From positions 128,001 through 192,000 of IMG/VR virus record IMGVR_UViG_3300045988_082442: 64,000 nucleotides of DNA. The stretch is one strand, 5' to 3'. The notes under the pieces are model-generated. The model was not told where the DNA came from and made no database searches. It worked only from the letters and a program-made list of their open reading frames with translations. Source of the DNA: a virus. The stretch's first letter is position 1. Every line of letters starts with the position of its first letter. A program made the position numbers and the translations under genes. Of this stretch, positions 1 to 18,111 are shown piece by piece.

Positions 1-73
1 TAAAAATGTTCAGTAAGATGTTAATAAGAATGTAAGTAAGTTTTCTGGTATCTTGATAAAAACCAGAATATAT

Positions 74-146
74 CTCCTTATGGTGTAATAGGCAAACACG
101 CTACTGAGTGGTGGTAGAATTATAGGTTCGAGCCCTGTTGGGGAGG
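74..146 (+). tRNA. tRNA-like gene with non-canonical anticodon loop (GUG/His if read at standard positions)
   Basis: Hand fold: acceptor CTCCTTA/TGGGGAG (two G-U), D arm GTGT-AATAGGCAA-ACAC, T arm ATAGG-TTCGAGC-CCTGT, anticodon stem CTACT/GGTAG. The loop GAGTGGT lacks U33. Confidence 0.5.
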
Positions 147-272
147 ATAAATTCTATATATAGAATAATGTGTTACGCAGTATCTGTATTATAAGGTGAC
201 AAGTACACAGGACGCTGTGGAGGGTTTCAATTCCTGGTAGTTGATTAGGTCTACAAAATACAGATATAATAT

Positions 273-344
273 CAGGTGGTAGTTGATAGGAAAACACTTC
301 TACTAATGTATGAAGAGATGCTGGTTCGAATCCAGCCCTCCTGA
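273..344 (+). tRNA. tRNA-like gene, degenerate (possible pseudo-tRNA)
   Basis: Canonical T arm GCTGG-TTCGAAT-CCAGC. Acceptor CAGGTGG/CCTCCTG has one T-T mismatch. D loop contains GG. Anticodon arm pairs only 3-4 bp (CTTC..GAAG) around an 11-nt loop. Confidence 0.35.
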
Positions 345-357
345 CCTTTTCAAAAAT

Positions 358-443
358 GCAAGTATATCTCAACGGCAGAGCAGCCTCCAGTTGGGGGTGA
401 AAAGTAGCATACGATTGTGTAGGTTCGAATCCTACTACTTGCA
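358..443 (+). tRNA. class II (long variable arm) tRNA-like gene, anticodon arm non-canonical
   Basis: Perfect acceptor GCAAGTA/TACTTGC, T arm GTAGG-TTCGAAT-CCTAC, D loop AACGGCA, variable-arm hairpin GTA-GCA-TAC. The anticodon region GCCTCCAGTTGGGGGT folds as 6 bp with a 4-nt loop rather than 5 bp with a 7-nt loop. No encoded CCA. Confidence 0.5.
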
Positions 444-446
444 ACC

Positions 447-489
447 TAAAAATGACACAGATGTAAAAGAATATATTCATAGGTTATAT
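447..489 (+). ncRNA. candidate tRNA-flanked guide RNA: orphan 3' half of the CRISPR repeat (447-469) plus a 20-nt unique sequence (470-489)
   Basis: TAAAAATGACACAGATGTAAAAG matches the last ~21 nt of the array repeats. It starts 4 nt after the tRNA-like gene ending at 443. The 20 nt AATATATTCATAGGTTATAT that follow abut the 5' end of tRNA-Trp at 490. Confidence 0.45.
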
Positions 490-564
490 AGGAGCTTGGT
501 GTCAATGGTAGCACGACAGTCTCCAAAACTGTGAGTGAGAGTTCAAATCTTTCAGCTCCTGCCA
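490..564 (+). tRNA. tRNA-Trp (anticodon CCA), CCA end encoded
   Basis: Acceptor AGGAGCT/AGCTCCT, D arm GTGT-CAATGGTA-GCAC, anticodon stem ACAGT/ACTGT with loop CTCCAAA, T arm GAGAG-TTCAAAT-CTTTC, discriminator G then CCA. Confidence 0.9.
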
Positions 565-778
565 ACATATCAATAATTCTAAATAAAATAAAAATAATCA
601 GATTGGGTTTGGTACACCTGTAAGTTTGGGTATAGATATGGTCCTAAAAGGTCAGTCTTGATTATGCACAGAGATGTGCTGGCGAACGGTGAATTATTGA
701 TATAAACAGATTGGATTATAACCTCTATAAGTTCAAGATAGAATGGGCTTGAAATACAATCTGTCAGTAATTTAATAT
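565..778 (+). ncRNA. candidate tracrRNA-like RNA between two tRNAs (anti-repeat at about 608-641)
   Basis: No ORF. 613-622 TACACCTGTA is the exact reverse complement of repeat bases TACAGGTGTA. Ungapped extension pairs about 23 of 30 positions with array-1 repeat 1. A repeat-like ATGCACAGAGATGTGC hairpin lies at 663-680. Confidence 0.35.
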
Positions 779-864
779 GGGTAGTTGGGTGAGTGGCTAA
801 AACCATCAGACTGTAAATCTGACCTCATTTGAGTTCCCTAGTTCGAATCTAGGACTACCCACCA
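779..864 (+). tRNA. tRNA-Tyr (anticodon GTA), class II, CCA end encoded
   Basis: Acceptor GGGTAGT/ACTACCC, anticodon stem TCAGA/TCTGA with loop CTGTAAA, variable-arm hairpin CTC-ATTT-GAG, T arm CCTAG-TTCGAAT-CTAGG, A then CCA. Confidence 0.9.
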
Positions 865-919: not shown

Positions 920-1144
920 TTTTTATAGCTATATGAAATAATACAGGTGTAAAAGTGTTCTAACTGTTTTAGAGTATAATCGTTTGTTTTACAGATATAT
1001 GAAATAACACAGGTGTAAAAGCTAGACTGTAAATCTGGTCTCATTTGAGTTACTTTGTAGTTATATGAAATAGCACAGATGTAAAATTGGATAATATGTT
1101 CTGAATTGTTTTATAGCTATACAGAAATGACATGGATGTAAGAG
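920..1144 (+). CRISPR. CRISPR array 1: four 36-37-nt repeats, three spacers (30, 30, 20 nt)
   Basis: Repeats at 920-955, 986-1021, 1052-1087 and 1108-1144, with a 66-nt period for the first three. Consensus is GTTTTATAGCTATATGAAATAACACAGGTGTAAAAG. Spacers are unique. The array is 57 nt upstream of the RuvC nuclease gene on the same strand. Confidence 0.8.
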
Positions 1145-4743: not shown

Positions 4744-5916
4744 GTGAATTTATTAGATAGTGTAGAAATTCAGAAATTAGAAGAGGATATAAAAAGATAT
4801 GCAAAAGCGTACTACGAGGGAAAAGCTCAAATCTCTGACTATGAGTTCGACAAACTTACAGATAGATTAAGAGATTTAAAACCAGACTCAACTGTATTAA
4901 GAACACCGGGATGGGGATATGAACAAACTGGTACAAAAGTAAAACATAAATATCAAATAGTTAAAAGTTTGGATAAGTGCAGAACATTTGATGAAATTCC
5001 AGAAAGATTTACAAATAAATCAGTAGCATTATCACCAAAACTAGATGGTCTTACAGGTGTATTCTATTATAAAAATGGTAGACTTATAAAAGCAATAACA
5101 AGAGGAAATGGAACAGAAGGCAAGGATATTACAGATAAAGCAAGACTAATAGTAGGTAATGAAATATTAGATAAGAACTTTACAGGTGGTGTTAGAGGTG
5201 AACTTGAAATTTCTAATACTAACTGGGAAATAATAAAGAGCAAATACCCAGAAGCTAAGAATGCAAGGAACTTATGTGCAGGTTGGATAAATTCAAAAGA
5301 CTATAATCCAGATGAAATAAAAATGATAGATTTTATTACTTATAAGGTAACTGGACAAGAAAGAGAAGAAGGAAAAGAAGATATATTTTATGATTTATCA
5401 AAAGTAGATAATATTGGTGAGATATGCTTTAATAGCAATCCAACTAAGTTTAATGTTATAGACTGGCTATCATATAACTTTAAAAATACAATACCAAAGG
5501 TACAAGCAACATTAACAAGAGATGGGTTTCAAGAATTTATGCAAAAGGTATTTACTGAATTTAAAACAAGTGATAGATATAATTTAGATTACGAACTAGA
5601 TGGTATTGTTATATCTGATATAGATGTAATATATCATAGAGCAGAAAATTCATATATTTATGATGAGTGTGCCTTTAAATTTGCAGCTGAATCTGCTGAG
5701 GCTAAGGTTACAGGAATTACTTGGAATATGACAAGAACACAAAGATTAGTTCCCATTGTTCAGTTTGAACCTGTATTTTTATCTGGTGCTGTTTTACAAA
5801 ATGCTACTGGACACAATGCAAAGTTTATATTAGATAATGAAATAAAAATTGGTTCTACTATTGAGATTTGCAGAAGTAATGAAGTAATTCCTTATATAAA
5901 GAAGGTAGTTGATTAA
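4744..5916 (+). CDS. ligA: NAD-dependent DNA ligase, N-terminal fragment (Ia, adenylation and OB domains)
   Basis: LigA Ia-like YYEGKAQISDYEFDKL, adenylation motif I SPKLDGLTG, and ELDGIVISD. The fragment ends where an OB domain would end. GTG start after GGAGG. Confidence 0.8.
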   Translation: MNLLDSVEIQKLEEDIKRYAKAYYEGKAQISDYEFDKLTDRLRDLKPDSTVLRTPGWGYEQTGTKVKHKYQIVKSLDKCRTFDEIPERFTNKSVALSPKLDGLTGVFYYKNGRLIKAITRGNGTEGKDITDKARLIVGNEILDKNFTGGVRGELEISNTNWEIIKSKYPEAKNARNLCAGWINSKDYNPDEIKMIDFITYKVTGQEREEGKEDIFYDLSKVDNIGEICFNSNPTKFNVIDWLSYNFKNTIPKVQATLTRDGFQEFMQKVFTEFKTSDRYNLDYELDGIVISDIDVIYHRAENSYIYDECAFKFAAESAEAKVTGITWNMTRTQRLVPIVQFEPVFLSGAVLQNATGHNAKFILDNEIKIGSTIEICRSNEVIPYIKKVVD

Positions 5917-5917
5917 T

Positions 5918-6679
5918 ATGTATGGTTATATCTATTTAGTGCATGACAGTCTAAATAATAGACATTATATAGGACAACACAAATGGACAAAGTATGAATT
6001 ATTAGACGAAGATTACACAAGAGGGTCTGAAAAAGCATTTAGAGATTCCCATGGATTTGATTTATTTAAGATAGACCCAAATTATTTAGGTTCAGGAAAA
6101 CATTTACAAAATGCAATTAAAAAATATGGTAAGAATTATTTTTATATACAAGATATACTTGATATTGCAGAAACAAAACAGGAGTTGAATAAAAAAGAGA
6201 AAGAATGTATTAGACATTATAAATATGTATTAGGTTATAATCTATACAATATTAGTGAGGGTGGTGATGGAGGATATACTGGTAAAGATATTAGTGGTAA
6301 GAATAACCCAATGTATGGAAAACATCATACAGAAGAAACTAAACAGAAATTAAGAGAAATTATGAAATCTAAGGATTTTGAATATTTTAAAACAGACCCT
6401 AGATTTAGACATTATGGCAAAGATAATGGAATGTATGGTAAAAATCATACTGAAGAATCAAAGGAGAGAAACAGGAAAAAACATTTAGGAAAGAAAGTAT
6501 CTGATGAAACAAGAAATAAAATGAGAAAATCACATAACCCAAATAATATGCCCCCAAATCTACAAGGATATAGAGGAATGAATAATGGAATAATATATAC
6601 AAAAATACCACCAGATAAAATAGATAAATACTTGAGTGATGGTTGGAAGTTTGGAAGAATTAAAAAGGAGGATAAATAA
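5918..6679 (+). CDS. GIY-YIG homing endonuclease with NUMOD3-like repeats
   Basis: YGYIYLV..HYIGQH (GIY..YIG), YNISEGG, and two GK(N/D)NxMYGKxHTEE repeats. It sits between the two ligase fragments with overlapping stop and start codons. Confidence 0.8.
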   Translation: MYGYIYLVHDSLNNRHYIGQHKWTKYELLDEDYTRGSEKAFRDSHGFDLFKIDPNYLGSGKHLQNAIKKYGKNYFYIQDILDIAETKQELNKKEKECIRHYKYVLGYNLYNISEGGDGGYTGKDISGKNNPMYGKHHTEETKQKLREIMKSKDFEYFKTDPRFRHYGKDNGMYGKNHTEESKERNRKKHLGKKVSDETRNKMRKSHNPNNMPPNLQGYRGMNNGIIYTKIPPDKIDKYLSDGWKFGRIKKEDK

Positions 6680-7566
6680 TGAATAGATGTGTAAATTTAG
6701 AAGAGAGTGAATATTTACCTACACAATGCCCAGCCTGTGGACATAATTTGGAGTGGGTTGGTGTTGATTTAAAATGTGTAAACACAGAATGTCCACATAT
6801 AGCAGAGAGTGATTTGGAACAGTGGTGTACTATTGTAGGAGAAACAGATGGGTTAGCATGGGTAACAATGAAGCAATATTTAGATAAATTCAATATACAT
6901 AATACAGATGATTTATATAAGAATATAAATACAATGATAGCTACATTACAAGGTGGTAATGCTTCTATAACAGATAAAAAGATTGTAGAGTTTCTAAATA
7001 AGTTATATAAAGATATGATACCAGTAGAAAAAGCATTGATGGGATTAAATATACCAAGATTAAGTGAACAGACAGCAAAATTATTAAATAAAGAGAAAGA
7101 GTTAGTACATGATTTAATGACAATAGGTTCTCAATATACTACTGTAAAGGATAGAGATATGATTTCTATTCCAGATACATTAAAGAATAAACTATTAGGA
7201 TTAGTTAAAGAAGCAACAACAGAATCTATATTAAGTAATTTAGGAAAGTTGAACACACTACATTATTTATATGAACAAGATACACCTAGAATTATATTCA
7301 ATGACAATACTGATGAAATTATAAAGGTTGCTGTTACTGGCTCATTAGAGAGTATGAAAAGAAGTGCTTTTGAGAAGTATATACAAAGTTATGGATATGA
7401 ATTATCTAGTAGTATTAAATCTTGTAAATATTTAATAACTAATAATCCGAACAGTGGTTCAAGCAAGAATAAAGATGCCCAAAAATATGGTGTTGAAATC
7501 ATAACTGAAAAAGAATTTTTAGATAAATTAGGTAAGGTAACTACTAAATCTAATACATTGTTTTAA
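6679..7566 (+). CDS. ligA: NAD-dependent DNA ligase, C-terminal fragment (Zn finger, HhH, BRCT)
   Basis: CPACGHNL..CVNTECPH zinc-finger motif. BRCT-like VAVTGSL...YLITNNPNSGSSKNKDAQKYGVEIITEKEF. The ATG overlaps the TAA of the endonuclease gene. Confidence 0.8.
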   Translation: MNRCVNLEESEYLPTQCPACGHNLEWVGVDLKCVNTECPHIAESDLEQWCTIVGETDGLAWVTMKQYLDKFNIHNTDDLYKNINTMIATLQGGNASITDKKIVEFLNKLYKDMIPVEKALMGLNIPRLSEQTAKLLNKEKELVHDLMTIGSQYTTVKDRDMISIPDTLKNKLLGLVKEATTESILSNLGKLNTLHYLYEQDTPRIIFNDNTDEIIKVAVTGSLESMKRSAFEKYIQSYGYELSSSIKSCKYLITNNPNSGSSKNKDAQKYGVEIITEKEFLDKLGKVTTKSNTLF

Positions 7567-7681: not shown

Positions 7682-10432
7682 ATGGGAAATTTATTTAATT
7701 TATTGAACAATCCACCTAAAAGTGAGTTACCAAAGTATTTGAAAGGAATTACAAAATCAGTTGATATTGAAAACTGTAGAACAATGGTAAATACATTTGT
7801 AGAAGGAGTTAATTTTACAGGGGATAAGTTAATTCAATATTGTATATCAAATAACATACCTTATTTTACAAGAGGTGAATATGATGTATTTACACTAGAA
7901 GAAGTTGAATATATAATAAATGATTTGAATACATTAAAAGCTTTAGAACTCGTTTTTGATGATTTTAAAAAGAAATTTCCAAAAAGACATATAGATATGT
8001 CATTAGAACAGTTTAAGAAGAAACTGTTAAAACTAGATTTAATAAAAGATGGAGAGGAGTTGAACAAATATATGAGGTACACAAATGATACAGTAGAGTA
8101 TGTCAGAAGATTAGGTACAGAACATACAATAGAAGAATGTTTGGAAATAATAAAAGTAGACAAACCTGAATTATCAATGACAGCAGATAGACTAAATGAG
8201 ATGAAGGATAGATACTTAATCAAATTTGTTAAAGATGAGGGGATGTTTACAGAATCACAGATTGAAATGATAAAAGTATTAGCAAGAACAGAAACAGTCA
8301 AAAATACATATTTAAGAATGAGAGAGTTATATGGAATACCATGTGGATACTTAGAGTTTATTGAACAAATAAGTAGATTAAAGGCATTATCAATATATAA
8401 CATTGGTACTATAACTACACATTTAACACCATTTGAAGAAGCATATATAGAGGAATTATTAGTTTCAGAAGATAGTAATGCTGTACTATATTCTAAATTT
8501 AATAAAGCATTTCCTAATAAATATCAATATCTACAATTTGTGAAATATTTAAACGAAATTAAAACATCAAAATACAGTAATAATGAAAGCACAAACAATG
8601 ATAAATATAAAGATTTAGAAAAACTTTTAGAATCATTTAAAGGGGAAAAGACAATACAAGAATGTTTAGATGAAGCACAGAAAGATGAAAGATTTAAAGA
8701 TTGTAATTATAAATCTATTTACAACTTTATACACAGAAGAAATATACCATTTAAACAAGCAAAAAAAGGAAGAGTAGCAGGTACAAAGAATATAGATAAA
8801 AAGGATAAGACAGTATCAAGAGCTAAGGGCAGAAAGAGCATACTAGATGATATTTATGATGATTTAGTTGAAACTTTAAGTAGGGTATCAATACCAAAAA
8901 CAATTATAGAATTAAAAGAAAGATATCCAGAGAAAGCAGATAGATTAAGTTATGGTTTAATAATGCACTATGCAAAAAATCATAATATTAAAACTAAAAA
9001 GGAGACACCAGAGGAAAGACAAGATAGAATGAATAAGATGAGAGGCATAAGGGGAACAAAGAAACAGGAACAGACACAATCAAAAGATGGTAAAGTAGAT
9101 GGTAGACAAGAATTGTCTAATAAGATTTATGATGACTTAAAATCATTGTGTAAAGATTATACAAAAATGGAATGCTTAAATATTATTCGTAAGAAATACA
9201 ATGTAGACTATACTGAGACTTATATACCAAATCTAATGAATAGAAAAGGAAAACTAAAATTTAAAGTATATACAGAGTTTACAGATGATATGAAAAAGAC
9301 AATAAGTGAATTAGAAGGAACAGTAGGAAATAAGGTAAATTTATATAGGAAATTTGCAAAAGTATATCCAGGTGCTGTGTCATTAAGACAATTTTGTAAT
9401 ATGTATAATGACATGGAAAAGGCATCAGAGGAAGATACAATACATAATACAGATACTATTGGGGTATCTGCAGATGAAATTGAAAGTAAACCTATTGTAG
9501 AACCAGTTACAGAACATATAGATACAATACCAGTTAAGGAAGAAGAGCATACTGAATTTGTTGAATCAATCCAACAAAAACAACCAGTACCTGTGGAAAA
9601 ATATCAACCAATAATAGATGAGGTAAATGCAACATTTGAAAGAAAATGTAGACAGTTAGGAGTATCAGAAGATACACATCAACATACAGATGAAATCATA
9701 AAAGCATTAGGTACTATTATACAATATGCAGATAGCAAGAAACTAAACAGAATATTAAATGACCATGAAGATATATTAGAGCAATATAGAAGAGAAGTGG
9801 AACATGAAATTGAAATAGAACCTTGGTCAGATGGTGATTCTTATTGTCATAATAAATTAAAAGCAATAGGAATGAGAAGAAGAGAAGTTAAATATGCTAG
9901 AGATGACATTAATGTAATGAAAGAATTACTTGACAATATAAATACTAATATTGAACTTTATAAAAAGACATTAGAAGATTTAGAGGAGAAAAAGTTACAA
10001 AGAGAGAACTCAATATTTATTCCATTGGTGGATTCATCAATGGTAGACAGACTAGATTGGTGTAAACATGCATCTTTAAGAAGCAAAAGAGCTTATACCC
10101 CAATACTAACAACTAATGCAAAGGAAGATAGAATAAAAAGATATAAAGCACAAGGAGACAGAGATTTATGGGTAGAAAAAGAACAGACACAACCTGTATT
10201 TCAAGATAATGTAAGTAAGTCAAATAAAAATTCCCATTTAAAATCAACATATAGAGTTAAGGCAGAATTTATGGTTTTAAAAGGAAACCCTTTTGTAAAT
10301 AAATATTATGATGTTGTAACAACTAATGAAGATTTAGCAAAGGACAAAGCAATAGAGTATTTTGACTTAATAAGCTCAAATAATAATAATGCAAAATATC
10401 AAATAGTATCTGTAACAAGATTAAATAGATAA
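7682..10432 (+). CDS. large hypothetical protein (916 aa) with repeated short helical modules
   Basis: ORF track; GGAGG RBS. Segments of the form ECL(E/D/N)..K...Y.....N recur at least four times. No catalytic motif recognised. Confidence 0.7.
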   Translation: MGNLFNLLNNPPKSELPKYLKGITKSVDIENCRTMVNTFVEGVNFTGDKLIQYCISNNIPYFTRGEYDVFTLEEVEYIINDLNTLKALELVFDDFKKKFPKRHIDMSLEQFKKKLLKLDLIKDGEELNKYMRYTNDTVEYVRRLGTEHTIEECLEIIKVDKPELSMTADRLNEMKDRYLIKFVKDEGMFTESQIEMIKVLARTETVKNTYLRMRELYGIPCGYLEFIEQISRLKALSIYNIGTITTHLTPFEEAYIEELLVSEDSNAVLYSKFNKAFPNKYQYLQFVKYLNEIKTSKYSNNESTNNDKYKDLEKLLESFKGEKTIQECLDEAQKDERFKDCNYKSIYNFIHRRNIPFKQAKKGRVAGTKNIDKKDKTVSRAKGRKSILDDIYDDLVETLSRVSIPKTIIELKERYPEKADRLSYGLIMHYAKNHNIKTKKETPEERQDRMNKMRGIRGTKKQEQTQSKDGKVDGRQELSNKIYDDLKSLCKDYTKMECLNIIRKKYNVDYTETYIPNLMNRKGKLKFKVYTEFTDDMKKTISELEGTVGNKVNLYRKFAKVYPGAVSLRQFCNMYNDMEKASEEDTIHNTDTIGVSADEIESKPIVEPVTEHIDTIPVKEEEHTEFVESIQQKQPVPVEKYQPIIDEVNATFERKCRQLGVSEDTHQHTDEIIKALGTIIQYADSKKLNRILNDHEDILEQYRREVEHEIEIEPWSDGDSYCHNKLKAIGMRRREVKYARDDINVMKELLDNINTNIELYKKTLEDLEEKKLQRENSIFIPLVDSSMVDRLDWCKHASLRSKRAYTPILTTNAKEDRIKRYKAQGDRDLWVEKEQTQPVFQDNVSKSNKNSHLKSTYRVKAEFMVLKGNPFVNKYYDVVTTNEDLAKDKAIEYFDLISSNNNNAKYQIVSVTRLNR

Positions 10433-10494: not shown

Positions 10495-11289
10495 ATGGGA
10501 ATAGATTATAAAACAATAAGTCATGAATTACCAGACAATTTATTATGGCTGGAAGATAGAACAATATTACTAACAAAGGCAGGTTCATACATATATGGGA
10601 CAAACATAGAAACATCAGATACAGACTATAAAGGTGTTTGTATCCCACCAAAAGAATATTATTTAGGTTTAAAATCAATAAATGAATATAATAAATCTGG
10701 TGGTAAAAACTTTGGTGAAAGAAATACCAAAGATGATATAGATATAGTTGTATGTCATATAAATAAGTTTGTAAGAGATGCTATGAATGGTATTCCAAAT
10801 AATTTAGATATACTATTTTGTAGAGATGAGGATGTAATTTATATGGATGATTTTGGTAAGGAGTTAAGAGATTTTAGACATGAGTTCTTATCAAAAGAAG
10901 TATTCAAAAAGTTCTCAGGTTACGCTTTATCACAAAAACATAAAATAGAGACTAAAAAGAATCATGGAACTGGAAGAAGAGAATTAGTAGAAGAATTTGG
11001 GTATGACTGTAAATTTGCTTATCATGCTGTAAGACTAATATTAGGTGCAACAGAAATATTAGAAACACATGATTATCATTCATATAGACCAGAAAGGGAA
11101 TGGTTAGTAGAAATAAGAAAAGGTAAATATACACTAGAAGAAATATTTGATATAATAGAAGATTTAGATGCAAAACTAAAAAGTGCTTATGAAACAAGTA
11201 CATTAAGAGAAAAACCAGATTATCATAAAATAAATAAATGGCTAATAGGTTTAAATGAAAGAGCATTGAATTATGACTTTAAAAGGTAG
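10495..11289 (+). CDS. RlaP-like (RNA-repair-associated, pol-beta-fold) nucleotidyltransferase
   Basis: AGSYIYGTNIETSDTDYKGVCIPP resembles the GS..YG....SD.D..G signature of this family. ATG at 10495 after AGGAGG. Confidence 0.55.
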   Translation: MGIDYKTISHELPDNLLWLEDRTILLTKAGSYIYGTNIETSDTDYKGVCIPPKEYYLGLKSINEYNKSGGKNFGERNTKDDIDIVVCHINKFVRDAMNGIPNNLDILFCRDEDVIYMDDFGKELRDFRHEFLSKEVFKKFSGYALSQKHKIETKKNHGTGRRELVEEFGYDCKFAYHAVRLILGATEILETHDYHSYRPEREWLVEIRKGKYTLEEIFDIIEDLDAKLKSAYETSTLREKPDYHKINKWLIGLNERALNYDFKR

Positions 11290-11297
11290 TCAGCTGC

Positions 11298-11324
11298 CGT
11301 CAGGATTCCCTAGAAATGATTTTA
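11298..11324 (+). repeat. GC-rich conserved intergenic element, copy 1
   Basis: CGTCAGGATTCCCTAGAAATGATTTT is identical to 56975-57000 except for one base. Confidence 0.6.
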
Positions 11325-11388
11325 AATGTTTAGACATAAAATTATAAGGTTGTAAATAAAATAGTCTTAAATATTGTTCAAAAAATGC

Positions 11389-11417
11389 TTGACAAAACTT
11401 AAAACTTATAGTATATT
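11389..11417 (+). promoter_or_regulatory. sigma-70-like promoter (family)
   Basis: AAAATGCTTGACAAAACTTAAAACTTATAG then TATATT. Confidence 0.65.
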
Positions 11418-11445
11418 TATAGAAACGAAGGGAGATGGGTTTTAA

Positions 11446-12213
11446 ATGGGAAATTCAAGAATAAAAACATTAAGTGATAGAATGAAAGATTATGAGTTAG
11501 CATCTGATTACAGACTAACAAAGAAAACACCTGTAATAGTGAGAATAGATGGTAAATCATTTCACACCTTTACAAAAGGATTAGATAAACCTTTTGATAG
11601 TATATTATCAGAAGCAATGAACTATGTTTGTAGAAAATTAGTAGAAACAGTACAGGGCTGTAAGTTTGCATATACACAATCAGATGAGATAAGTTTATTA
11701 TTAACAGATTGGGATAAATCAACAACAGATTGTTATTTTGATTATAGGGTACAGAAAATGGTATCAGTATTAGCTTCAGCAGCAACTATGTATTTTAATC
11801 AGTATATAGTATCAAGAGTTTTATACTGGCAAAAAGGAGAGTCAGAATTATCAGAAAAGTTATTTGATAAATGGGCTGCAAAAGCTGGTTGTGCAATGTT
11901 TGATGCAAGAGCATATAATTTGCCAAAAGAAGAAGTATGTAATTACTTTATATGGAGACAAGAAGATGCAAGCAGAAATTCTATACAGTCATTAGGCAGA
12001 AGTAGATTTTCATTTAAGCAAATGTTAAATAAAAAGAACAATGAAGTACAAGATATGCTGTTTAATGAATATGGTATAAATTGGAATCGTATAGATACTA
12101 AATGGAAAAGAGGATTTGCAGTATGTAGAGATAAAGATGGTATAAAATCAGACTTTGAGATACCATTATTTAAAAAAGATAGAGCATTTATAGACAAATA
12201 TCTTATAGTATAA
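11446..12213 (+). CDS. Thg1-like protein (tRNA 3'-5' nucleotidyltransferase / tRNA-His guanylyltransferase family)
   Basis: VIVRIDGKSFHTFTKG and YTQSDEISLLL match the two conserved Thg1 catalytic segments. The size (255 aa) fits. Confidence 0.7.
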   Translation: MGNSRIKTLSDRMKDYELASDYRLTKKTPVIVRIDGKSFHTFTKGLDKPFDSILSEAMNYVCRKLVETVQGCKFAYTQSDEISLLLTDWDKSTTDCYFDYRVQKMVSVLASAATMYFNQYIVSRVLYWQKGESELSEKLFDKWAAKAGCAMFDARAYNLPKEEVCNYFIWRQEDASRNSIQSLGRSRFSFKQMLNKKNNEVQDMLFNEYGINWNRIDTKWKRGFAVCRDKDGIKSDFEIPLFKKDRAFIDKYLIV

Positions 12214-12242
12214 GATGTTTATAATGATGAAAGGATATAAAA

Positions 12243-12392
12243 ATGTTTATATGTGATAAATGTAGAACTTGTAGTAAGTTTCCATTTTGCACAGTAACAG
12301 AGAGTAAAGATGGAAATTGTGGTGAATATTCCAAAAGAAATATTTACAAGTTTATAGAAGATAAATTAAAAGATATTGAGAATAAGAGGTAG
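12243..12392 (+). CDS. small Cys-rich protein (49 aa)
   Basis: ATG..TAG ORF with CDKCRTC..C..C; fills a gap; below the track cutoff. Confidence 0.35.
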   Translation: MFICDKCRTCSKFPFCTVTESKDGNCGEYSKRNIYKFIEDKLKDIENKR

Positions 12393-12395
12393 AAC

Positions 12396-13013
12396 ATGCT
12401 TGAATTAGAGTTATATGGACGTTGTTATAAAAAGAATAACAATATAAAAATAAATAAAGGTATTACAGTTTTAACTGGACCAAATGGGTGTGGTAAATCT
12501 TATGCTTGTCAGCAAATAAGAGATTACCTAAAAGAAAATAATAAGAAAGTATATTTTGTAGATGTATATTCAGAGGGTAAAACTATATCACAACAATATT
12601 TAGAATATGGAGATATGGAATCATTAGCAAAGCATACAGTAGCATCAGAAGGTCAAAGAGTATTTGATACACTTATAGATAATCATGCATCAAAATTAGG
12701 GGAATTTGTTAGACAACTAATAGATAATAACCTAAAAGAAGGATATATAATTATAGATGGTGCTGATAGTGGTGTTAGTATTGATTTAATGATGTCATTG
12801 AGAAGTTTATTTAGTATGATAGAAGAGGATTGTGTAGACAGTGGAATAGATATATACATAATTATAACTTCAAATAGTTTTGAATTATGTAGAAATTACG
12901 ACTGTATCTGGATACCTACAATGGAACATTATAAAAGAGGAGATGAAGCAGATGCCTATGATTTGTGGAGACACCAATATGAAAAAATCTACAAAGAAAG
13001 AAACAAGAAATAA
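12396..13013 (+). CDS. P-loop ATPase (ABC/AAA-like, small)
   Basis: Walker A GPNGCGKS and Walker-B-like YIIIDGADSG. Confidence 0.65.
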   Translation: MLELELYGRCYKKNNNIKINKGITVLTGPNGCGKSYACQQIRDYLKENNKKVYFVDVYSEGKTISQQYLEYGDMESLAKHTVASEGQRVFDTLIDNHASKLGEFVRQLIDNNLKEGYIIIDGADSGVSIDLMMSLRSLFSMIEEDCVDSGIDIYIIITSNSFELCRNYDCIWIPTMEHYKRGDEADAYDLWRHQYEKIYKERNKK

Positions 13014-13269
13014 GATTGTAGAAGAATATAAAAGAATATACAGTAGAAAGTATAGAAGAGCTCATTATAAGAGTAAATGGGTATTACAATCTGGTAATCA
13101 ACTAGCAGAAGAAGATTTTAAATCTTGGTGTCAAGAATCAAAAGTTATAATGAGAAAGCATAAAGTTGGATTAATTACTGATGATGATATGTTGGGGTAT
13201 ATAAATAAATGGATAGAACAAGATGTTAAGATAAAAGAAGAAATAGATATACTTGCTTTGAGCAAGTAA
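12978..13269 (+). CDS. basic hypothetical protein
   Basis: ORF-track frame 12880-13269. ATG at 12978 after GGAGA is preferred. It overlaps the end of the ATPase gene. Confidence 0.5.
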
Positions 13270-13278
13270 TAGATATAA

Positions 13279-13315
13279 GGGTAATTTTATAACCCTTGCA
13301 GGAAACTGCGAACTA
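13279..13315 (+). promoter_or_regulatory. conserved double-hairpin leader motif, copy C
   Basis: GGGTAATTTTATAACCC TT GCAGGAAACTGC GAACT, 10 nt after a stop codon. Confidence 0.7.
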
Positions 13316-13334
13316 TTTTTAATAGATATAAAAG
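13316..13334 (+). repeat. strongly truncated CRISPR-repeat remnant
   Basis: TTTTTAATAGATATAAAAG keeps the repeat's 5' end and its terminal AAAG. It is followed by the palindrome AAAAGCTTTT and a T-run. Confidence 0.3.
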
Positions 13335-13390
13335 CTTTTTTCGATACCCCAATTTATAAGATAAATAAAACAGAATAGAGGTAGGAAGTT

Positions 13391-15859
13391 ATGAGAAATT
13401 TAGTAGTATTAAGAGGATGCCCAGGTGCAGGGAAATCAACTTGGATAAAAGAAAATGGTTTAGAGCCTTATACATTATGTCCAGATACAATAAGGACAAT
13501 GGTAAGTGCTCCAGTATATACAGAAGAACATGATACTGAGATGACTATATCTCAGCAAAATGAAACTTATACATGGAATTTATTATTTGAATTACTTGAA
13601 AATAGAATGAAGAATGGTGATTTTACAGTAATAGATGCAACACATAGCAGGTCATCAGATTTTAGTAGATATAACGATTTATGTTCTACATATAGATATA
13701 GAAGATATACTGTATCATTTACAGATGTACCAGAAGAAGTATGTAAACAAAGAAATCTGGAAAGAGATGCCTATAAACAGGTACCACCTGAAGTTATAGA
13801 AAAGATGTATGCTAGATTTGCAACACAAAATAAAACAAGTGGATGGACAGAAATTCCAAGAGATAAATTCTGGGAAGTATTTAGTAATAAAGTGTTTGAT
13901 TTTAATAAGTATGAAAAAGTTCATATATTTGGTGATATTCATGGATGTTATGACCCACTAGAACAATATATAGTAGATAGCTATAATGGAGATGATGTAC
14001 ATGAAGATTTAAGCCCAGAAACATTAAAGAATTTATTAAATAAAGATGAGGCTTATATATTTGTAGGTGATTACTTAGATAGAGGATTACAAAATAAAGA
14101 AGTTTTAAAATTTATGATTTCAATATGTCAATTAGATAATGTTTTATGCTTAGAGGGAAATCACGAAAGATATTTATGGTATTGGGCTAATGAACAAGAT
14201 AATGAAATAAGAAGTAAAGAGTTCTTTAATCATACAGTACCACAAATAAGAGGTATATCTCCATCTGATATAAGACAATTTTATAGAAAATTAGGACAAA
14301 TGGCATTATTTACATTTAATAATGAAACATATTTTGTAACACATGGTGGATTATCATTATTACCAGAACACTTACCATTAGTATCAACAAATTGTCTAAT
14401 AAATGGTACAGGAAGATTTAAGTTTCCAATAGATGAAAGATATACAGAAAATATGCAAGGTAAAAATGTATTACAAGTACATGGTCATAGAAATATGGAA
14501 TGTGATTATAAAGGAAAACTACCTTTATCATTCTCACTAGAAGATAGAGTTGAGTTTGGTGGTAATTTTGTAGTATTAGAAATAAATGAGAAAGGTAATT
14601 ACTTCCATAGAATAAAGAATGATACATTTAGGGAACCTGATTATGACAATAAAGAAGAAGAAATAATACCAGCATTTGATATGACAATGGACAATATTGT
14701 AGAAAGAATGAGATTGAATAAGAACATAAAAGAAACAGTGCTACCAGATGGTATATCATCTTTTAACTTTACTAGACAAGCATTTGAAAAAGATAGATGG
14801 AACTCAGAAACAGTTAAAGCAAGGGGATTATTTATAGATACTGAAAACAATAAAATAGTTGCAAGAGGATATGAGAAGTTCTTTAATATAAATGAACAAG
14901 AAAACTGTAAATTATTTAATCTAAAATCATTATTTAATACAGGATTACCTGTAATTGCATATAAGAAGTATAATGGATTTTTAGGAATATTAAGTTATTA
15001 TCATGATGAGTTAAAATTCCATTCAAAATCTACTAATATAGGTGATTATGCAAACTACTTTAAAGACCTATTTTATAAAAGATTTACTGACAAACAAATA
15101 GATATGATTACAGATTATTTAAAGAATAATAATGTATCAATGGTATTTGAAGTTATAGACATAGACAATGACCCACATATCATAGAAGAAAAAGAAAGCA
15201 GAGTAGTTTTATTAGATATAATCAGAAATGAAGTAGAGTTTAGCAGATTACCTTATGACCAGTTATTACTTTTAGCAAACTTATGGGGAATAAAAGAAGA
15301 TGGTGTAAAACAAATATATAAAGAATTTACATCATACAGAGAGTTGACTGAGTTCTATGAAATACATAAAGATGATAAAAACTTTAATGATATTGATATA
15401 GAAGGAGTTGTAATAGAATGTGGTAACTTTATGACAAAGCTTAAATTTAATTATTATAGATTCTGGAAGGGTATGAGAAGTGTTGCAGAAAAATTACAAA
15501 GTGGAAGAGATAATGTAAAATTAAGTATGTTATACAATGCAACTGCAAACTATTTCTATAAGTTTGTAAAAGATATGGTAGAAGAAAAACAGTTAGAACT
15601 TCTAAAAATAAAAGATACATTAGGATTGGGAGATATAAATGCTGGTGATTTAAGAAGAGCAGAATTAGACTTTGAAAATAATATGATTACAATTCATAAA
15701 AGAGATAGAAGAGCTTATTATATAGGAAATGATATTACAGCAGAAAATGTTATTACAGCAACAACAACCCCAGAAATAATGAACAAACTATCAGAACTAC
15801 AAAAATCAAAGGATATAATAACATTAAGAAACGAATATTATAGAAATGGTGGTGTTTAA
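13391..15859 (+). CDS. pnkp: polynucleotide kinase-phosphatase-ligase (bacterial Pnkp-type RNA repair enzyme)
   Basis: N-terminal P-loop GCPGAGKST. Central calcineurin-type motifs GDIHGC, GDYLDRG, GNHE and VHGH. C-terminal nucleotidyltransferase motifs KKYNGF (I), MVFEV (III), IEGVVI (IV) and KLKF (V). Confidence 0.8.
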   Translation: MRNLVVLRGCPGAGKSTWIKENGLEPYTLCPDTIRTMVSAPVYTEEHDTEMTISQQNETYTWNLLFELLENRMKNGDFTVIDATHSRSSDFSRYNDLCSTYRYRRYTVSFTDVPEEVCKQRNLERDAYKQVPPEVIEKMYARFATQNKTSGWTEIPRDKFWEVFSNKVFDFNKYEKVHIFGDIHGCYDPLEQYIVDSYNGDDVHEDLSPETLKNLLNKDEAYIFVGDYLDRGLQNKEVLKFMISICQLDNVLCLEGNHERYLWYWANEQDNEIRSKEFFNHTVPQIRGISPSDIRQFYRKLGQMALFTFNNETYFVTHGGLSLLPEHLPLVSTNCLINGTGRFKFPIDERYTENMQGKNVLQVHGHRNMECDYKGKLPLSFSLEDRVEFGGNFVVLEINEKGNYFHRIKNDTFREPDYDNKEEEIIPAFDMTMDNIVERMRLNKNIKETVLPDGISSFNFTRQAFEKDRWNSETVKARGLFIDTENNKIVARGYEKFFNINEQENCKLFNLKSLFNTGLPVIAYKKYNGFLGILSYYHDELKFHSKSTNIGDYANYFKDLFYKRFTDKQIDMITDYLKNNNVSMVFEVIDIDNDPHIIEEKESRVVLLDIIRNEVEFSRLPYDQLLLLANLWGIKEDGVKQIYKEFTSYRELTEFYEIHKDDKNFNDIDIEGVVIECGNFMTKLKFNYYRFWKGMRSVAEKLQSGRDNVKLSMLYNATANYFYKFVKDMVEEKQLELLKIKDTLGLGDINAGDLRRAELDFENNMITIHKRDRRAYYIGNDITAENVITATTTPEIMNKLSELQKSKDIITLRNEYYRNGGV

Positions 15860-17243: not shown

Positions 17244-17665
17244 ATCCTATAGCTATATAAAATGACACAGATGTGAAAGTATTGCAACATTAAAATACCC
17301 TATTTTTGGGGTTTTATGGCTATATAAAATAACACAGATGTGAAAGAGGGATTTTGTTTTGTTAGCATTTATTTCTGTTTTATAGCTATATAAAATGACA
17401 CAGATGTGAAAGTCTGGAACAAATCTTGAAAAGTCCAGCTTTGTTTTATGGCTATATAAAATAACACAGGTGTGAAATAATTCAAAGTATTGTTCAAATA
17501 GTTTCTGTGTTTTATAGTTATATAAAATGACACAGATGTGAAAGGAATACTAAAATAAAGTAGCAATTGAGCTAGTTCTATAGCTATATAAAATGACACA
17601 GATATGAAAGTTAAGCTCATGAATGATAGCAACAATAGTTTTATAGATATATAAGAAGCAGAAAG
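17244..17665 (+). CRISPR. CRISPR array 2: seven repeats (last one degenerate), six spacers of 27-31 nt
   Basis: Repeats at 17244, 17311, 17377, 17443, 17509, 17575 and 17638, with a 66-67-nt period. Consensus is GTTTTATAGCTATATAAAATGACACAGATGTGAAAG (36 nt). All spacers are unique. Confidence 0.9.
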
Positions 17666-17676
17666 GAGAAAATTAA

Positions 17677-18111
17677 ATGAAAGAAAGATTAATATGTGAT
17701 TTAAAGGAAGCAATGAAGAATAAAGATGTAATTGCTAAAAATACAATACAAAGTATTAGGGCTTCTATACTACAGTATGAAAAAGATAATCATACAGAAG
17801 CAACTAATAAACAAATAGAGGATATATTGGTTAAAGAAAGGAAGAAAAGAGTAGATGCATTAGAACAATTCCAAAAAGCAAATAGGGAAGATTTAATACA
17901 TCAAACAGAAATGGAAATACAAATAATAGAGGGATATTTACCAGAGCAAATGTCAGAAGAAGAAATAAGAGAAAGACTATCTGAAACAATATCTCAAATG
18001 AATGCTGATAAATCAATGTTTGGACAAATAATGAAAATGGCAAAAGAAGAATTTGGAAATACAGCAGATGGTAAGACACTTAGTACAATATTGAAAGAAT
18101 TATTAAACTAA
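17677..18111 (+). CDS. GatB/YqeY-domain protein
   Basis: End-to-end resemblance to YqeY: L..DLKEAMK.KD, ...ILVKERKKR..., IIEGYLP, GQIMK...G.ADGK. Confidence 0.7.
   Translation: MKERLICDLKEAMKNKDVIAKNTIQSIRASILQYEKDNHTEATNKQIEDILVKERKKRVDALEQFQKANREDLIHQTEMEIQIIEGYLPEQMSEEEIRERLSETISQMNADKSMFGQIMKMAKEEFGNTADGKTLSTILKELLN

What the first reader, a model, noticed from the sequence alone, without database searches (positions are those of the whole stretch)
10495..15859. Clustered RNA (tRNA) repair toolkit: RlaP-like NTase, Thg1-like 3'-5' polymerase, P-loop ATPase and a Pnkp-type enzyme, with no Hen1 partner
- The Pnkp call rests on motifs seen directly: a kinase P-loop; GDIHG, GDYLDRG, GNHE and HGH for the phosphatase; KxNG, FE, EG and KxK for the ligase.
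- The Thg1-like call rests on RIDGKSFH and SDEIS.
- Established knowledge: bacterial Pnkp normally works with the Hen1 methyltransferase to repair ribotoxin-cut tRNA, and Thg1-like proteins repair tRNA 5' ends. No Hen1-like ORF is present here.
- Together with the phage tRNA genes, this looks like a layered counter-defence against anticodon nucleases.
- The Thg1-like, ATPase and Pnkp combination in one phage operon is not a textbook arrangement.
Basis: partly seen in the sequence, partly recalled or inferred. Interest (0 to 1): 0.7.

Follow-up and report, generated by a model that had tools for sequence, protein, structure and literature searches.

The report
Phage tRNA-repair gene cluster, Hen1-independent
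A large uncultured gut phage carries neighbouring genes for four RNA-end repair activities; this is a real but expected phage tRNA-repair kit, and it needs no Hen1 because its ligase is the self-sufficient T4/yeast type.

Summary
The four ORFs exist exactly as described, and profile and structure searches confirm their domains. They are RlaP (10495-11289), a bacterial-type Thg1-like protein, TLP (11446-12213), a 205-aa ABC-like ATPase (12396-13013) and an 822-aa kinase-phosphatase-ligase, "KPL" (13391-15859). The "Pnkp" call is half right. The KPL kinase and metallophosphatase are Clostridium thermocellum Pnkp-like. The ligase is Rnl1/Trl1-type (Pfam RNA_lig_T4_1, 1e-36; best folds are fungal Trl1-LIG, then T4 Rnl1). 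The bacterial Pnkp model matches only its first 402 of 851 positions. That explains the missing Hen1. No methyltransferase appears in about 81 kb of this 213.6-kb phage contig, nor beside about ten KPL homologues. KPL belongs to a large family (more than 5,000 proteins, PHROG 8238) that usually stands alone. The order RlaP-TLP-ATPase-KPL recurs in five related contigs, one of them rearranged. It was absent from 80 other TLP-bearing viral loci. The ATPase family shows no general link to RNA repair. Links between Thg1, polynucleotide kinase and RNA ligase, and between RlaP and ligase, are already published, including for jumbo phages. Verdict: a new member of a known kind, of modest interest.

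The parts
10495..11289 (+). RlaP-family Pol-beta nucleotidyltransferase (264 aa). Predicted to add 1-2 nucleotides to RNA 3'-OH ends.
   Evidence: PF10127 1.4e-21 and phrog_388 6.8e-70. 68-73% identical orthologues sit in the same position in L007, L099, L100 and L102. Activity is inferred from PfRlaP and PaRlaP biochemistry (PMC12776372).
11446..12213 (+). Bacterial-type Thg1-like protein, TLP (255 aa). Predicted template-dependent 3'-5' RNA polymerase that rebuilds tRNA 5' ends.
   Evidence: PF04446 3.8e-32. The best solved relative is Bacillus thuringiensis TLP 4kgk, 2.8e-54. The protein has RNSIQS where eukaryotic Thg1 has INNLYN. D35 and D80-E81 are invariant in the six aligned TLP sequences.
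12243..12392 (+). 49-aa Cys-rich ORF between the TLP and ATPase genes. Function unknown.
   Evidence: Conserved at 73-90% identity in L007, L099 and L100. No Pfam hit.
12396..13013 (+). 205-aa minimal ABC-type ATPase. Role unassigned; it is adjacent to KPL only in this phage lineage.
   Evidence: Has Walker A GPNGCGKS, signature-like ASEGQ and Walker B IIIDGADSG. AF2 pLDDT 86.9; the best folds are ABC nucleotide-binding domains YbbA, SufC and FtsE, at TM about 0.4. The word-seeded search found 31 close homologues. The profile search found 572 clusters at E<=1e-10, mostly about 200-230 aa. Of 80 IMG/VR loci, only the close relative L102 has KPL nearby.
12952..13269 (+). 105-aa ORF overlapping the ATPase 3' end. 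Function unknown.
   Evidence: Called as a gene on the source contig. 45% identical to a counterpart in L100 only. No Pfam hit.
13391..15859 (+). KPL, a single-chain RNA healing-and-sealing enzyme. It comprises a P-loop 5'-kinase (about 1-165), a binuclear metallophosphatase (about 175-410), an Rnl1/Trl1-type ATP-dependent RNA ligase (about 445-735) and a clade-specific C-terminal insert (about 745-800).
   Evidence: Pfam, PHROG and NCBIfam hits. Foldseek: ligase to Trl1-LIG 8rbj, 6n0t and 9qw7 (E 1e-14 to 1e-13) and T4 Rnl1 (3e-12); kinase to CthPnkp 4mde and 4gp7 (TMt 0.72-0.75); phosphatase to CthPnkp 4j6o (TMt 0.70). Catalytic residues are invariant.
17677..18111 (+). YqeY (GatB-tail-like) protein. 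A possible tRNA-binding accessory.
   Evidence: PF09424 4.4e-35. It lies 0.3-1.8 kb downstream of KPL in the window, L007, L010, L012 and L102. Its function is inferred only.
73..864 (+). Phage tRNA array: a His-like gene, two tRNA-like genes with closed anticodon arms, tRNA-Trp and tRNA-Tyr. It lies about 9.6 kb upstream of the cluster.
   Evidence: ARAGORN and Rfam and folds. In relatives, tRNA genes and a tmRNA gene sit inside the repair cluster.

Best explanation
This is a phage-borne tRNA break-repair module of the known ligase + nucleotidyltransferase + end-modifying-enzyme kind.

Core enzyme. [quoted passage not shown]
- the metallophosphatase domain removes the cyclic or terminal phosphate;
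- the P-loop kinase phosphorylates the 5'-OH;
- the Rnl1/Trl1-type ligase seals the ends through a Lys526-AMP intermediate.
The ligase belongs to the Rnl1/Trl1 clade, not to the Hen1-gated bacterial Pnkp clade. No Hen1 is needed, and no 2'-O-methyl mark is installed.

Auxiliaries. Two enzymes deal with breaks that have lost nucleotides:
- RlaP adds one or two nucleotides to the 3'-OH end;
- the BtTLP-like Thg1 homologue extends 5'-monophosphate ends 3'-to-5' against a template, for example in the acceptor stem. The KPL kinase could supply its substrate.

Shown versus inferred. The domain identities and intact active sites are shown here. The pathway, tRNA as the substrate, and the purpose (undoing host or competitor tRNA nucleases during infection) are inferred from characterised homologues and gene context. 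The ABC-like ATPase and YqeY are conserved neighbours with no assignable role.
For: - Domains and catalytic motifs.
- Structure: the ligase is nearest fungal Trl1-LIG and T4 Rnl1. The kinase and phosphatase are nearest C. thermocellum Pnkp.
- Synteny: RlaP-TLP-(insertions or tRNAs)-ATPase-KPL recurs in L007/L008, L099, L100 and L102, where KPL is 62-69% identical. In L009 (56%) it is rearranged to ATPase-x-KPL-xxx-TLP. Proximity therefore survives rearrangement.
- tRNA context: relatives place tRNA and tmRNA genes inside the cluster. A Swiss-army-knife RNA-repair phosphatase domain (HAD_SAK_2) and a tRNA array lie upstream.
- No Hen1: none beside any KPL homologue examined.
- Literature: RlaP adds 1-2 NMP to damaged RNA 3' ends and helps restore activity to over-damaged tRNA (PMC12776372). 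BtTLP prefers 5'-truncated tRNAs (PMC3061083). Thg1-PNK-ligase neighbourhoods are known (PMC2904730). Jumbo-phage RNA repair sets are described (PMC7824862).
Against: - No biochemical or infection data exist, and the phage is uncultured. The only host hint is one homologue labelled "uncultured Clostridium sp.".
- In 80 other TLP-bearing viral loci, none had an Rnl1-like ligase within 10 kb and only 12 had RlaP. In most phages TLP and ligase are therefore not physically linked.
- KPL usually stands alone.
- The ATPase family has unrelated neighbours elsewhere.
- Promoter-like and hairpin sites inside the cluster mean that a single operon is not shown.
- A template-dependent TLP has no obvious template within an anticodon loop. 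Its substrate in this scheme is therefore uncertain.
Confidence: 0.7

Rival explanations
1. The enzymes serve maturation or quality control of the phage's own tRNA, tRNA-like and tmRNA transcripts, rather than counter-defence. Possible tasks are 5'-end correction, an odd tRNA-His-like gene, or joining of processed pieces.
For: - tRNA and tmRNA genes are interleaved with the repair genes in relatives.
- The window's His-like tRNA has an 8-bp acceptor stem with U-1•G73 instead of the bacterial G-1:C73. It also has A33 and no encoded CCA.
- BtTLP performs templated N-1 addition in vitro (PMC3061083).
Against: - Templated addition opposite G73 would give C-1, not the G-1 identity element.
- No tRNA-His gene was found near TLP in L099 or L100.
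- Only 4 of 80 other TLP loci had a tRNA-His gene. Three of those four encode G-1 with C73; the fourth has T at both positions.
- No intron-bearing or permuted tRNA that would need a ligase was recognised.
Confidence: 0.15
2. The genes are neighbours without functional coupling. A lineage-specific block of accessory early genes happens to include several independent RNA-end enzymes and an unrelated ATPase.
For: - KPL, TLP and RlaP are each widespread and mostly unlinked in other phages. In Bcp1, RlaP and TLP lie 22 kb apart.
- Close relatives L010 and L012 keep KPL and YqeY but have no TLP, RlaP or ATPase within 10 kb.
- Neighbours of the ATPase family elsewhere are unrelated: a transposase, a tubulin-like protein, Bro-N and a P-type ATPase.
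Against: - Proximity of ATPase, KPL and TLP is kept despite a rearrangement in L009 and despite insertions in L007 and L099.
- RlaP-ligase and Thg1-PNK-ligase linkage has been seen independently in bacteria.
Confidence: 0.12
3. This is an ordinary bacterial Pnkp-Hen1 system whose Hen1 gene lies elsewhere in the genome.
For: - The kinase and phosphatase halves resemble CthPnkp.
- Only about 81 kb of the 213.6-kb contig could be inspected.
Against: - The ligase half does not match the Pnkp profile beyond position 402 of 851, at 99.5 bits against a cut-off of 750.
- No CthPnkp ligase-domain structure appears among the listed sequence or fold matches to solved structures.
- The ligase is Rnl1/Trl1-type.
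- pnkp and hen1 are reported to be always in the same operon (PMC4411300). No methyltransferase lies beside any of about ten KPL homologues.
Confidence: 0.02

Closest known systems
Bacteriophage T4 Pnkp + Rnl1 tRNA repair (with the RlaP homologue NrdC.11)
   Same: A phage-encoded pathway of 5'-kinase, 2',3'-phosphatase and Rnl1-clade ligase that would give a clean 3'-5' junction. An RlaP family member is present in the same genome (PMC12776372).
   Different: Here the three activities are fused in one chain. The phosphatase is a binuclear metallophosphoesterase, not a DxDxT/HAD acylphosphatase. Sequence similarity to T4 Rnl1 is seen only at profile and fold level.
Bacterial Pnkp-Hen1 (Clostridium thermocellum Pnkp)
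   Same: Same order of kinase, metallophosphatase and ligase. The kinase and phosphatase domains are the closest solved relatives (4gp6, 4mde, 4j6o).
   Different: The ligase domain is of a different clade. There is no Hen1, no Hen1-gating insertion is implied, and no 2'-O-methylation is expected. TIGR04075 is missed by a wide margin.
Fungal/plant tRNA ligase Trl1
   Same: A trifunctional healing-and-sealing enzyme. Its ligase domain is the best structural match (8rbj, 6n0t, 6n67, 9qw7).
   Different: The domain order is reversed (LIG-KIN-CPD). Trl1 uses a 2H cyclic phosphodiesterase and leaves a 2'-PO4 that Tpt1 removes. No Tpt1/KptA was seen here, and the metallophosphatase predicts 2'-OH/3'-OH ends (inference).
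Bacillus thuringiensis Thg1-like protein (BtTLP)
   Same: Matches at E 2.8e-54 over the full length, with the same catalytic carboxylates. BtTLP repairs 5'-truncated tRNAs in a template-dependent way (PMC3061083).
   Different: Phage-encoded and syntenic with RlaP and KPL. Activity is untested.
Jumbo-phage RNA repair gene sets (Iyer et al. 2021) and the Burroughs-Aravind RNA-repair 'syntax'
   Same: The same component list: ATP-grasp RNA ligase, PNK, calcineurin-like phosphatase, RlaP, sporadic Thg1 and many tRNAs (PMC7824862). Band-7 sits beside RlaP in relatives.
   Different: This lineage packs them within about 5.4 kb. It also adds a conserved mini ABC ATPase that is not part of the published syntax.

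Membership tests
Bacterial Pnkp-Hen1 RNA repair system | Full-length match to the Pnkp equivalog, including its own ligase domain (TIGR04075) | tested here: not met
   99.5 bits against a cut-off of 750. Only profile positions 9-402 of 851 aligned. No CthPnkp ligase-domain structure is among the 8 sequence matches or the 50 listed fold matches.
Bacterial Pnkp-Hen1 RNA repair system | A hen1 methyltransferase gene in the same operon | tested here: not met
   No methyltransferase or Hen1 Pfam hit in the window plus its 8.8/8.6-kb flanks. None beside homologues in L001, L002, L007-L014, L099 and L100. The rest of the contig (about 62%) could not be read.
Bacterial Pnkp-Hen1 RNA repair system | N-terminal P-loop polynucleotide kinase plus a central binuclear metallophosphatase | tested here: met
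   AAA_33 1.5e-20 and Metallophos 2.8e-14. CthPnkp kinase and phosphatase structures match at TMt 0.70-0.75. All motif residues are invariant.
Rnl1/Trl1 clade of ATP-dependent RNA ligases (Pfam RNA_lig_T4_1) | Profile match above the curated threshold, plus nucleotidyltransferase motifs I (KxxG), III, IV and V | tested here: met
   PF09511 at 127.3 bits against 28.3, covering profile positions 1-227 of 227. K526-x-N528-G529, E587, E671-G672 and K683-x-K685 are invariant.
Rnl1/Trl1 clade of ATP-dependent RNA ligases (Pfam RNA_lig_T4_1) | Fold closest to Rnl1/Trl1-LIG rather than to other RNA ligase families | tested here: met
   Foldseek ranks 1-7 are Trl1-LIG and ranks 8-10 are T4 Rnl1. Archaeal Palaeococcus and Pyrococcus RNA ligases rank lower (model pLDDT 86.4).
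Rnl1/Trl1 clade of ATP-dependent RNA ligases (Pfam RNA_lig_T4_1) | Autonomous sealing of tRNA 3'-OH/5'-PO4 breaks | not testable with these tools
   Needs enzyme assays.
Thg1 superfamily, bacterial TLP branch | Thg1 catalytic domain with the conserved carboxylates (RxDG and SDE) | tested here: met
   PF04446 at 111.4 bits against 29.2. D35, D80 and E81 are invariant in the six aligned TLP sequences.
Thg1 superfamily, bacterial TLP branch | TLP-type rather than eukaryotic tRNA-His-specific Thg1 (no HINNLYN-type motif; closest to BtTLP) | tested here: met
   4kgk (BtTLP) at 2.8e-54, against 2.8e-13 for Candida Thg1. RNSIQS aligns to INNLYN. That this motif is what distinguishes the two branches is from memory.
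RlaP (PF10127) nucleotidyltransferases | Profile match above threshold and genomic association with an RNA ligase | tested here: met
   77.8 bits against 23. The gene lies 2.1 kb upstream of the KPL ligase gene, and this is conserved in L007, L099, L100 and L102.
ABC-type ATPases | Walker A, signature (LSGGQ-like) and Walker B motifs on an ABC nucleotide-binding-domain fold | tested here: inconclusive
   GPNGCGKS, ASEGQ and IIIDGADSG are conserved. The top folds are ABC nucleotide-binding domains, but at TM of only about 0.4. No catalytic Glu follows Walker B. No dedicated Pfam or PHROG family exists.

The most novel reading that the evidence does not exclude
The conserved 205-aa ABC-like ATPase is a new, active part of phage tRNA protection, possibly together with the closed-anticodon tRNA-like RNAs and YqeY. 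Two mechanisms are conceivable. It could be an ATP-driven clamp that holds or hands over broken tRNA halves to KPL. Or it could be a decoy subunit that poisons the ABC-type ATPase domains on which host tRNA nucleases depend (PrrC, RloC, PtuA or AriA class). The evidence does not exclude either. The ATPase keeps its place next to KPL through a rearrangement. It shows weak N-terminal similarity to GajA, PtuA and AriA models (E 2e-6 to 2e-5). Members of its wider family sometimes sit beside tRNA arrays or YqeY.
Probability: 0.1. Interest if true: 0.65.

Novelty: new member of a known kind. Interest (0 to 1): 0.35.

Why it matters
It corrects an annotation trap. A protein with kinase, metallophosphatase and ligase domains is not necessarily a Pnkp awaiting Hen1.

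The KPL family has more than 5,000 phage or prophage proteins, including ones in SPbeta-like Bacillus phages and Staphylococcus epidermidis phages. It is a hybrid of Pnkp-type healing and Rnl1/Trl1-type sealing. I found no biochemical study of it in the library searched. It could be a convenient single-chain RNA repair enzyme.

The conserved synteny of a bacterial-type TLP with RlaP and KPL is further genomic support for the long-proposed but unproven idea that prokaryotic TLPs work in RNA repair.

Otherwise the cluster fits published comparative-genomic descriptions of phage RNA repair and does not change the picture.

Tried and rejected
- Megablast of the 5.5-kb region against GenBank phages gave no match. 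The phage has no close cultured relative.
- The search for related loci with the single KPL protein found nothing in IMG/VR. An alignment was needed to find related loci.
- Burroughs & Aravind 2016 (PMC5062991) is not held in the library. Its content is cited only second-hand.
- RlaP has no relative detectable by sequence among solved structures.
- The idea that TLP installs G-1 on the phage tRNA-His was considered and downgraded. The gene has U-1•G73, relatives show no tRNA-His near TLP, and three of the four tRNA-His genes found in other TLP loci encode G-1 with C73.
- PADLOC gave only weak N-terminal ATPase hits and nothing for the other proteins.
- Neighbours of distant ATPase homologues gave no consistent association.
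- Staphylococcus phage PMBT8 (which has TLP) was checked for KPL. There was none in bases 1-50,000. Coverage was incomplete, so this line was dropped.
- The 66-nt repeat arrays were tested as CRISPR. There were only sub-threshold CRISPR-DR22 hits (15 bits against 50). The spacers appear to retain residual similarity to each other (my reading of TRF's 74-79% matches over whole units), and some look able to form small hairpins on reading. A reading as tandem promoter/stem-loop cassettes is preferred.
It was redone with alignment A3.

Full report
OBSERVATION

The region 10495-15859 holds four same-strand ORFs plus two small ones.
- Pfam assigns RlaP (PF10127, 1.4e-21) and Thg1 (PF04446, 3.8e-32) to the first two.
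- The third gets a generic P-loop/ABC-like signal.
- The 822-aa protein gets AAA_33 + Metallophos + RNA_lig_T4_1 (1e-36).
- PHROGs agrees: phrog_388, phrog_4717, and phrog_8238 over the full length at 8.8e-205.
- The catalytic residues of all three KPL active sites are invariant across 28 homologues of 49-73% identity.

SOURCE

The window is part of a 213,644-bp metagenomic scaffold (ENA ERZ28663717 scaffold_17). That size indicates a jumbo phage. A T4-type portal and tail-fibre-like genes lie further along. There is no nucleotide-level relative in GenBank phages. One homologue of the ATPase is labelled "uncultured Clostridium sp.".

WHAT THE 822-aa PROTEIN IS

The N-terminal two thirds resemble bacterial Pnkp.
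- The sequence matches to solved structures covering these two domains are the C. thermocellum Pnkp kinase and phosphatase domains; T4 polynucleotide kinase (1ly1) and a plant Ser/Thr phosphatase (9tp7) match weakly.
- The AF2 model (pLDDT 86.4) superposes on them at TMt 0.70-0.75.

The ligase third does not.
- The NCBIfam equivalog for bacterial Pnkp aligns only to profile positions 9-402 of 851. It scores 99.5 bits against a cut-off of 750.
- Pfam places the C-terminal domain in RNA_lig_T4_1.
- Foldseek ranks fungal Trl1 ligase domains first (8rbj, 6n0t, 6n67, 9qw7), then T4 Rnl1. No Pnkp ligase structure is listed.

In true Pnkp, an insertion domain blocks the ligase site until the Hen1 N-terminal domain locks it open. 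pnkp and hen1 are reported to be always in the same operon (PMC4411300). Neither condition applies here.

No methyltransferase was recorded in the roughly 81 kb of the contig that could be inspected. None was recorded beside homologues in about ten other contexts. "No Hen1" is therefore the expected state of an Rnl1/Trl1-type enzyme and not an anomaly.

The family is large. A search scoring only the 8,000 best candidates found 5,073 proteins with E <= 1e-10, and all 120 listed share the same architecture. Members occur at about 40% identity in SPbeta-like Bacillus phages and Staphylococcus epidermidis Sepunavirus/Sextaecvirus phages, where they are annotated "RNA ligase" or "polynucleotide kinase". 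I found no paper characterising it.

THE OTHER GENES

The Thg1 homologue is a bacterial-type TLP. Bacillus thuringiensis TLP is the best solved relative (2.8e-54), and the eukaryotic anticodon-recognition motif is absent. BtTLP prefers to restore missing 5' nucleotides of truncated tRNAs in a templated way (PMC3061083).

RlaP enzymes add one or two nucleotides to 3'-OH ends of damaged RNA. They are proposed to rescue tRNAs from which a nuclease such as RloC removed a base (PMC12776372).

The 205-aa ATPase has Walker A, an ASEGQ signature-like motif and a DG-type Walker B. Its model is confident (pLDDT 86.9). It resembles ABC nucleotide-binding domains only loosely, at TM about 0.4.
- Word-seeded search found just 31 close homologues, all apparently from this phage group.
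- A profile search found 572 clusters at E<=1e-10, mostly about 200-230 aa. None belongs to a dedicated Pfam or PHROG family.

IS THE CLUSTERING MEANINGFUL?

Five related contigs keep the same neighbourhood.
- L007/L008: Band_7-RlaP-TLP-[four inserted ORFs]-ATPase-KPL...YqeY.
- L099: RlaP-TLP-[tRNA-Cys, Lys, tmRNA, Lys, Asp; a 400-aa ORF; tRNA-Leu, Tyr, Trp, Pro]-ATPase-KPL.
- L100: Band_7-RlaP-TLP-tRNA-Trp-ATPase-KPL.
- L102: the same order, with tRNA-Cys and tRNA-Trp after TLP.
- L009: rearranged to ATPase-x-KPL-xxx-TLP.

Retention through insertion and rearrangement argues for selection on proximity.

Against generality:
- Two other relatives (L010, L012) keep only KPL and YqeY.
- More distant KPL genes stand alone.
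- Among 80 other TLP-bearing IMG/VR loci, none had an Rnl1-like ligase within 10 kb and 12 had RlaP.
- Among 80 loci of the wider ATPase family, only the close relative L102 had KPL.
- Neighbours of the ATPase family elsewhere were unrelated.

The ATPase's role in RNA repair is therefore unproven.

A strong sigma-70-like site (11389-11417) precedes the TLP gene. Hairpins precede the RlaP and KPL genes. A single operon is not established.

MECHANISM (INFERRED)

A tRNA is cut by a metal-independent nuclease, leaving 2',3'>P and 5'-OH ends. The KPL phosphatase, kinase and ligase then heal and seal the break.

RlaP and TLP rebuild ends that have lost nucleotides. The KPL kinase could supply the 5'-phosphate that TLP needs. 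That link was proposed from bacterial Thg1-PNK neighbourhoods in 2010 (PMC2904730).

The phage tRNA array, an upstream HAD_SAK_2 phosphatase and YqeY fit the same theme.

COMPARISON AND NOVELTY

All component families and their associations are published, including for jumbo phages (PMC7824862). Three things are particular here:
- the tight packing in one lineage;
- the hybrid make-up of KPL, a large family for which I found no biochemical study;
- the conserved mini ABC ATPase.

I rate the finding a new member of a known kind, with interest 0.35.

SIDE OBSERVATIONS

These cover the tRNA-like RNAs with closed anticodon arms, the odd tRNA-His-like gene, the 66-nt repeat arrays that flank the block, and the split DNA ligase. 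They are listed under "noticed in passing".

Noticed in passing
window 273-346 and 357-446; L099:6621-6695; L100:2868-2942 and 71-158: There are two families of tRNA-like genes whose anticodon arm is a closed 6-7-bp hairpin capped by a tetraloop. Examples are AC-UAAU-GU, and GCCUCC-AGUU-GGGGGU against GCUGUC-UAUU-GACAGU. ARAGORN reports them as 'Ile aat' or '???'. The stems show compensatory changes between phages, while the acceptor, D and T arms look normal. They cannot decode. They may be cofactors or decoys, comparable to the predicted band-7-associated tRNA of RNA repair operons (bioRxiv 10.1101/312249). A Band_7 gene sits beside RlaP in L007 and L100.
   Followed up: partly
window 73-147: The 'tRNA-His' (GUG) gene has an 8-bp acceptor stem like tRNA-His, but with U-1•G73 instead of G-1:C73. 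It also has A33 instead of U33 and no encoded CCA. tRNA-Trp and tRNA-Tyr do encode CCA. Its Rfam score is only 38 bits. It is unclear whether it is a functional tRNA-His.
   Followed up: partly
window 921-1144 and 17249-17650 (also a half-motif at 450-469, and L015:6900-6918): There are arrays of a motif of about 35 nt (TTTTATAGCTATATAAAATGACACAGATGTGAAAG) repeated every 66 nt, with variable inserts of about 31 nt. Eleven motif matches were found where 0.45 are expected by chance. The arrays lie just upstream of the ORFs at 1202 and 17677, so they bracket the block that holds the DNA ligase and the repair cluster. The layout is CRISPR-like, but only sub-threshold CRISPR-DR22 hits were found. 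The inserts appear to keep some mutual similarity (inferred from the TRF match percentages) and some look able to form small hairpins. Tandem promoter/stem-loop cassettes seem more likely.
   Followed up: partly
window 1024-1058 versus 808-842: One insert of the first repeat array is an 86% copy of the anticodon arm and variable arm of the phage's own tRNA-Tyr. It could be a tRNA gene remnant or something functional.
   Followed up: no
window 4744-7566: The NAD-dependent DNA ligase gene is split. The adenylation + OB part (4744-5916) and the BRCT part (6679-7566) are separated by a GIY-YIG/NUMOD3 homing-endonuclease ORF (5909-6679). Related phages have an intact ligase of 578-680 aa.
   Followed up: partly
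L015:6015-6572 (2.2-2.8 kb upstream of the window start); L099:2696-3217: A HAD_SAK_2 ('Swiss army knife' RNA-repair phosphatase) gene lies just upstream of the tRNA array and is conserved in a relative. The RNA-repair gene set therefore extends beyond the window.
   Followed up: no
L099:16773-17132; L100:1695-2059: Related phages encode a tmRNA (tag ANLNAEKVAA or ANNYAEKVAA) among the tRNA genes. In L099 it lies inside the repair cluster. No tmRNA was found in the window.
   Followed up: no
window 7682-10432: A 916-aa protein with no family match lies immediately upstream of RlaP. It is conserved in the same position in relatives, at 27-43% identity. Function unknown.
   Followed up: no
L002 (Staphylococcus phage Terranova), L003 (Fusobacterium phage Fnu1), L007, L100: Band-7/prohibitin/HflC-like genes recur within a few genes of KPL, TLP or RlaP in unrelated phages. 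This echoes the published Band-7 association with RNA repair systems. The window itself has none.
   Followed up: no
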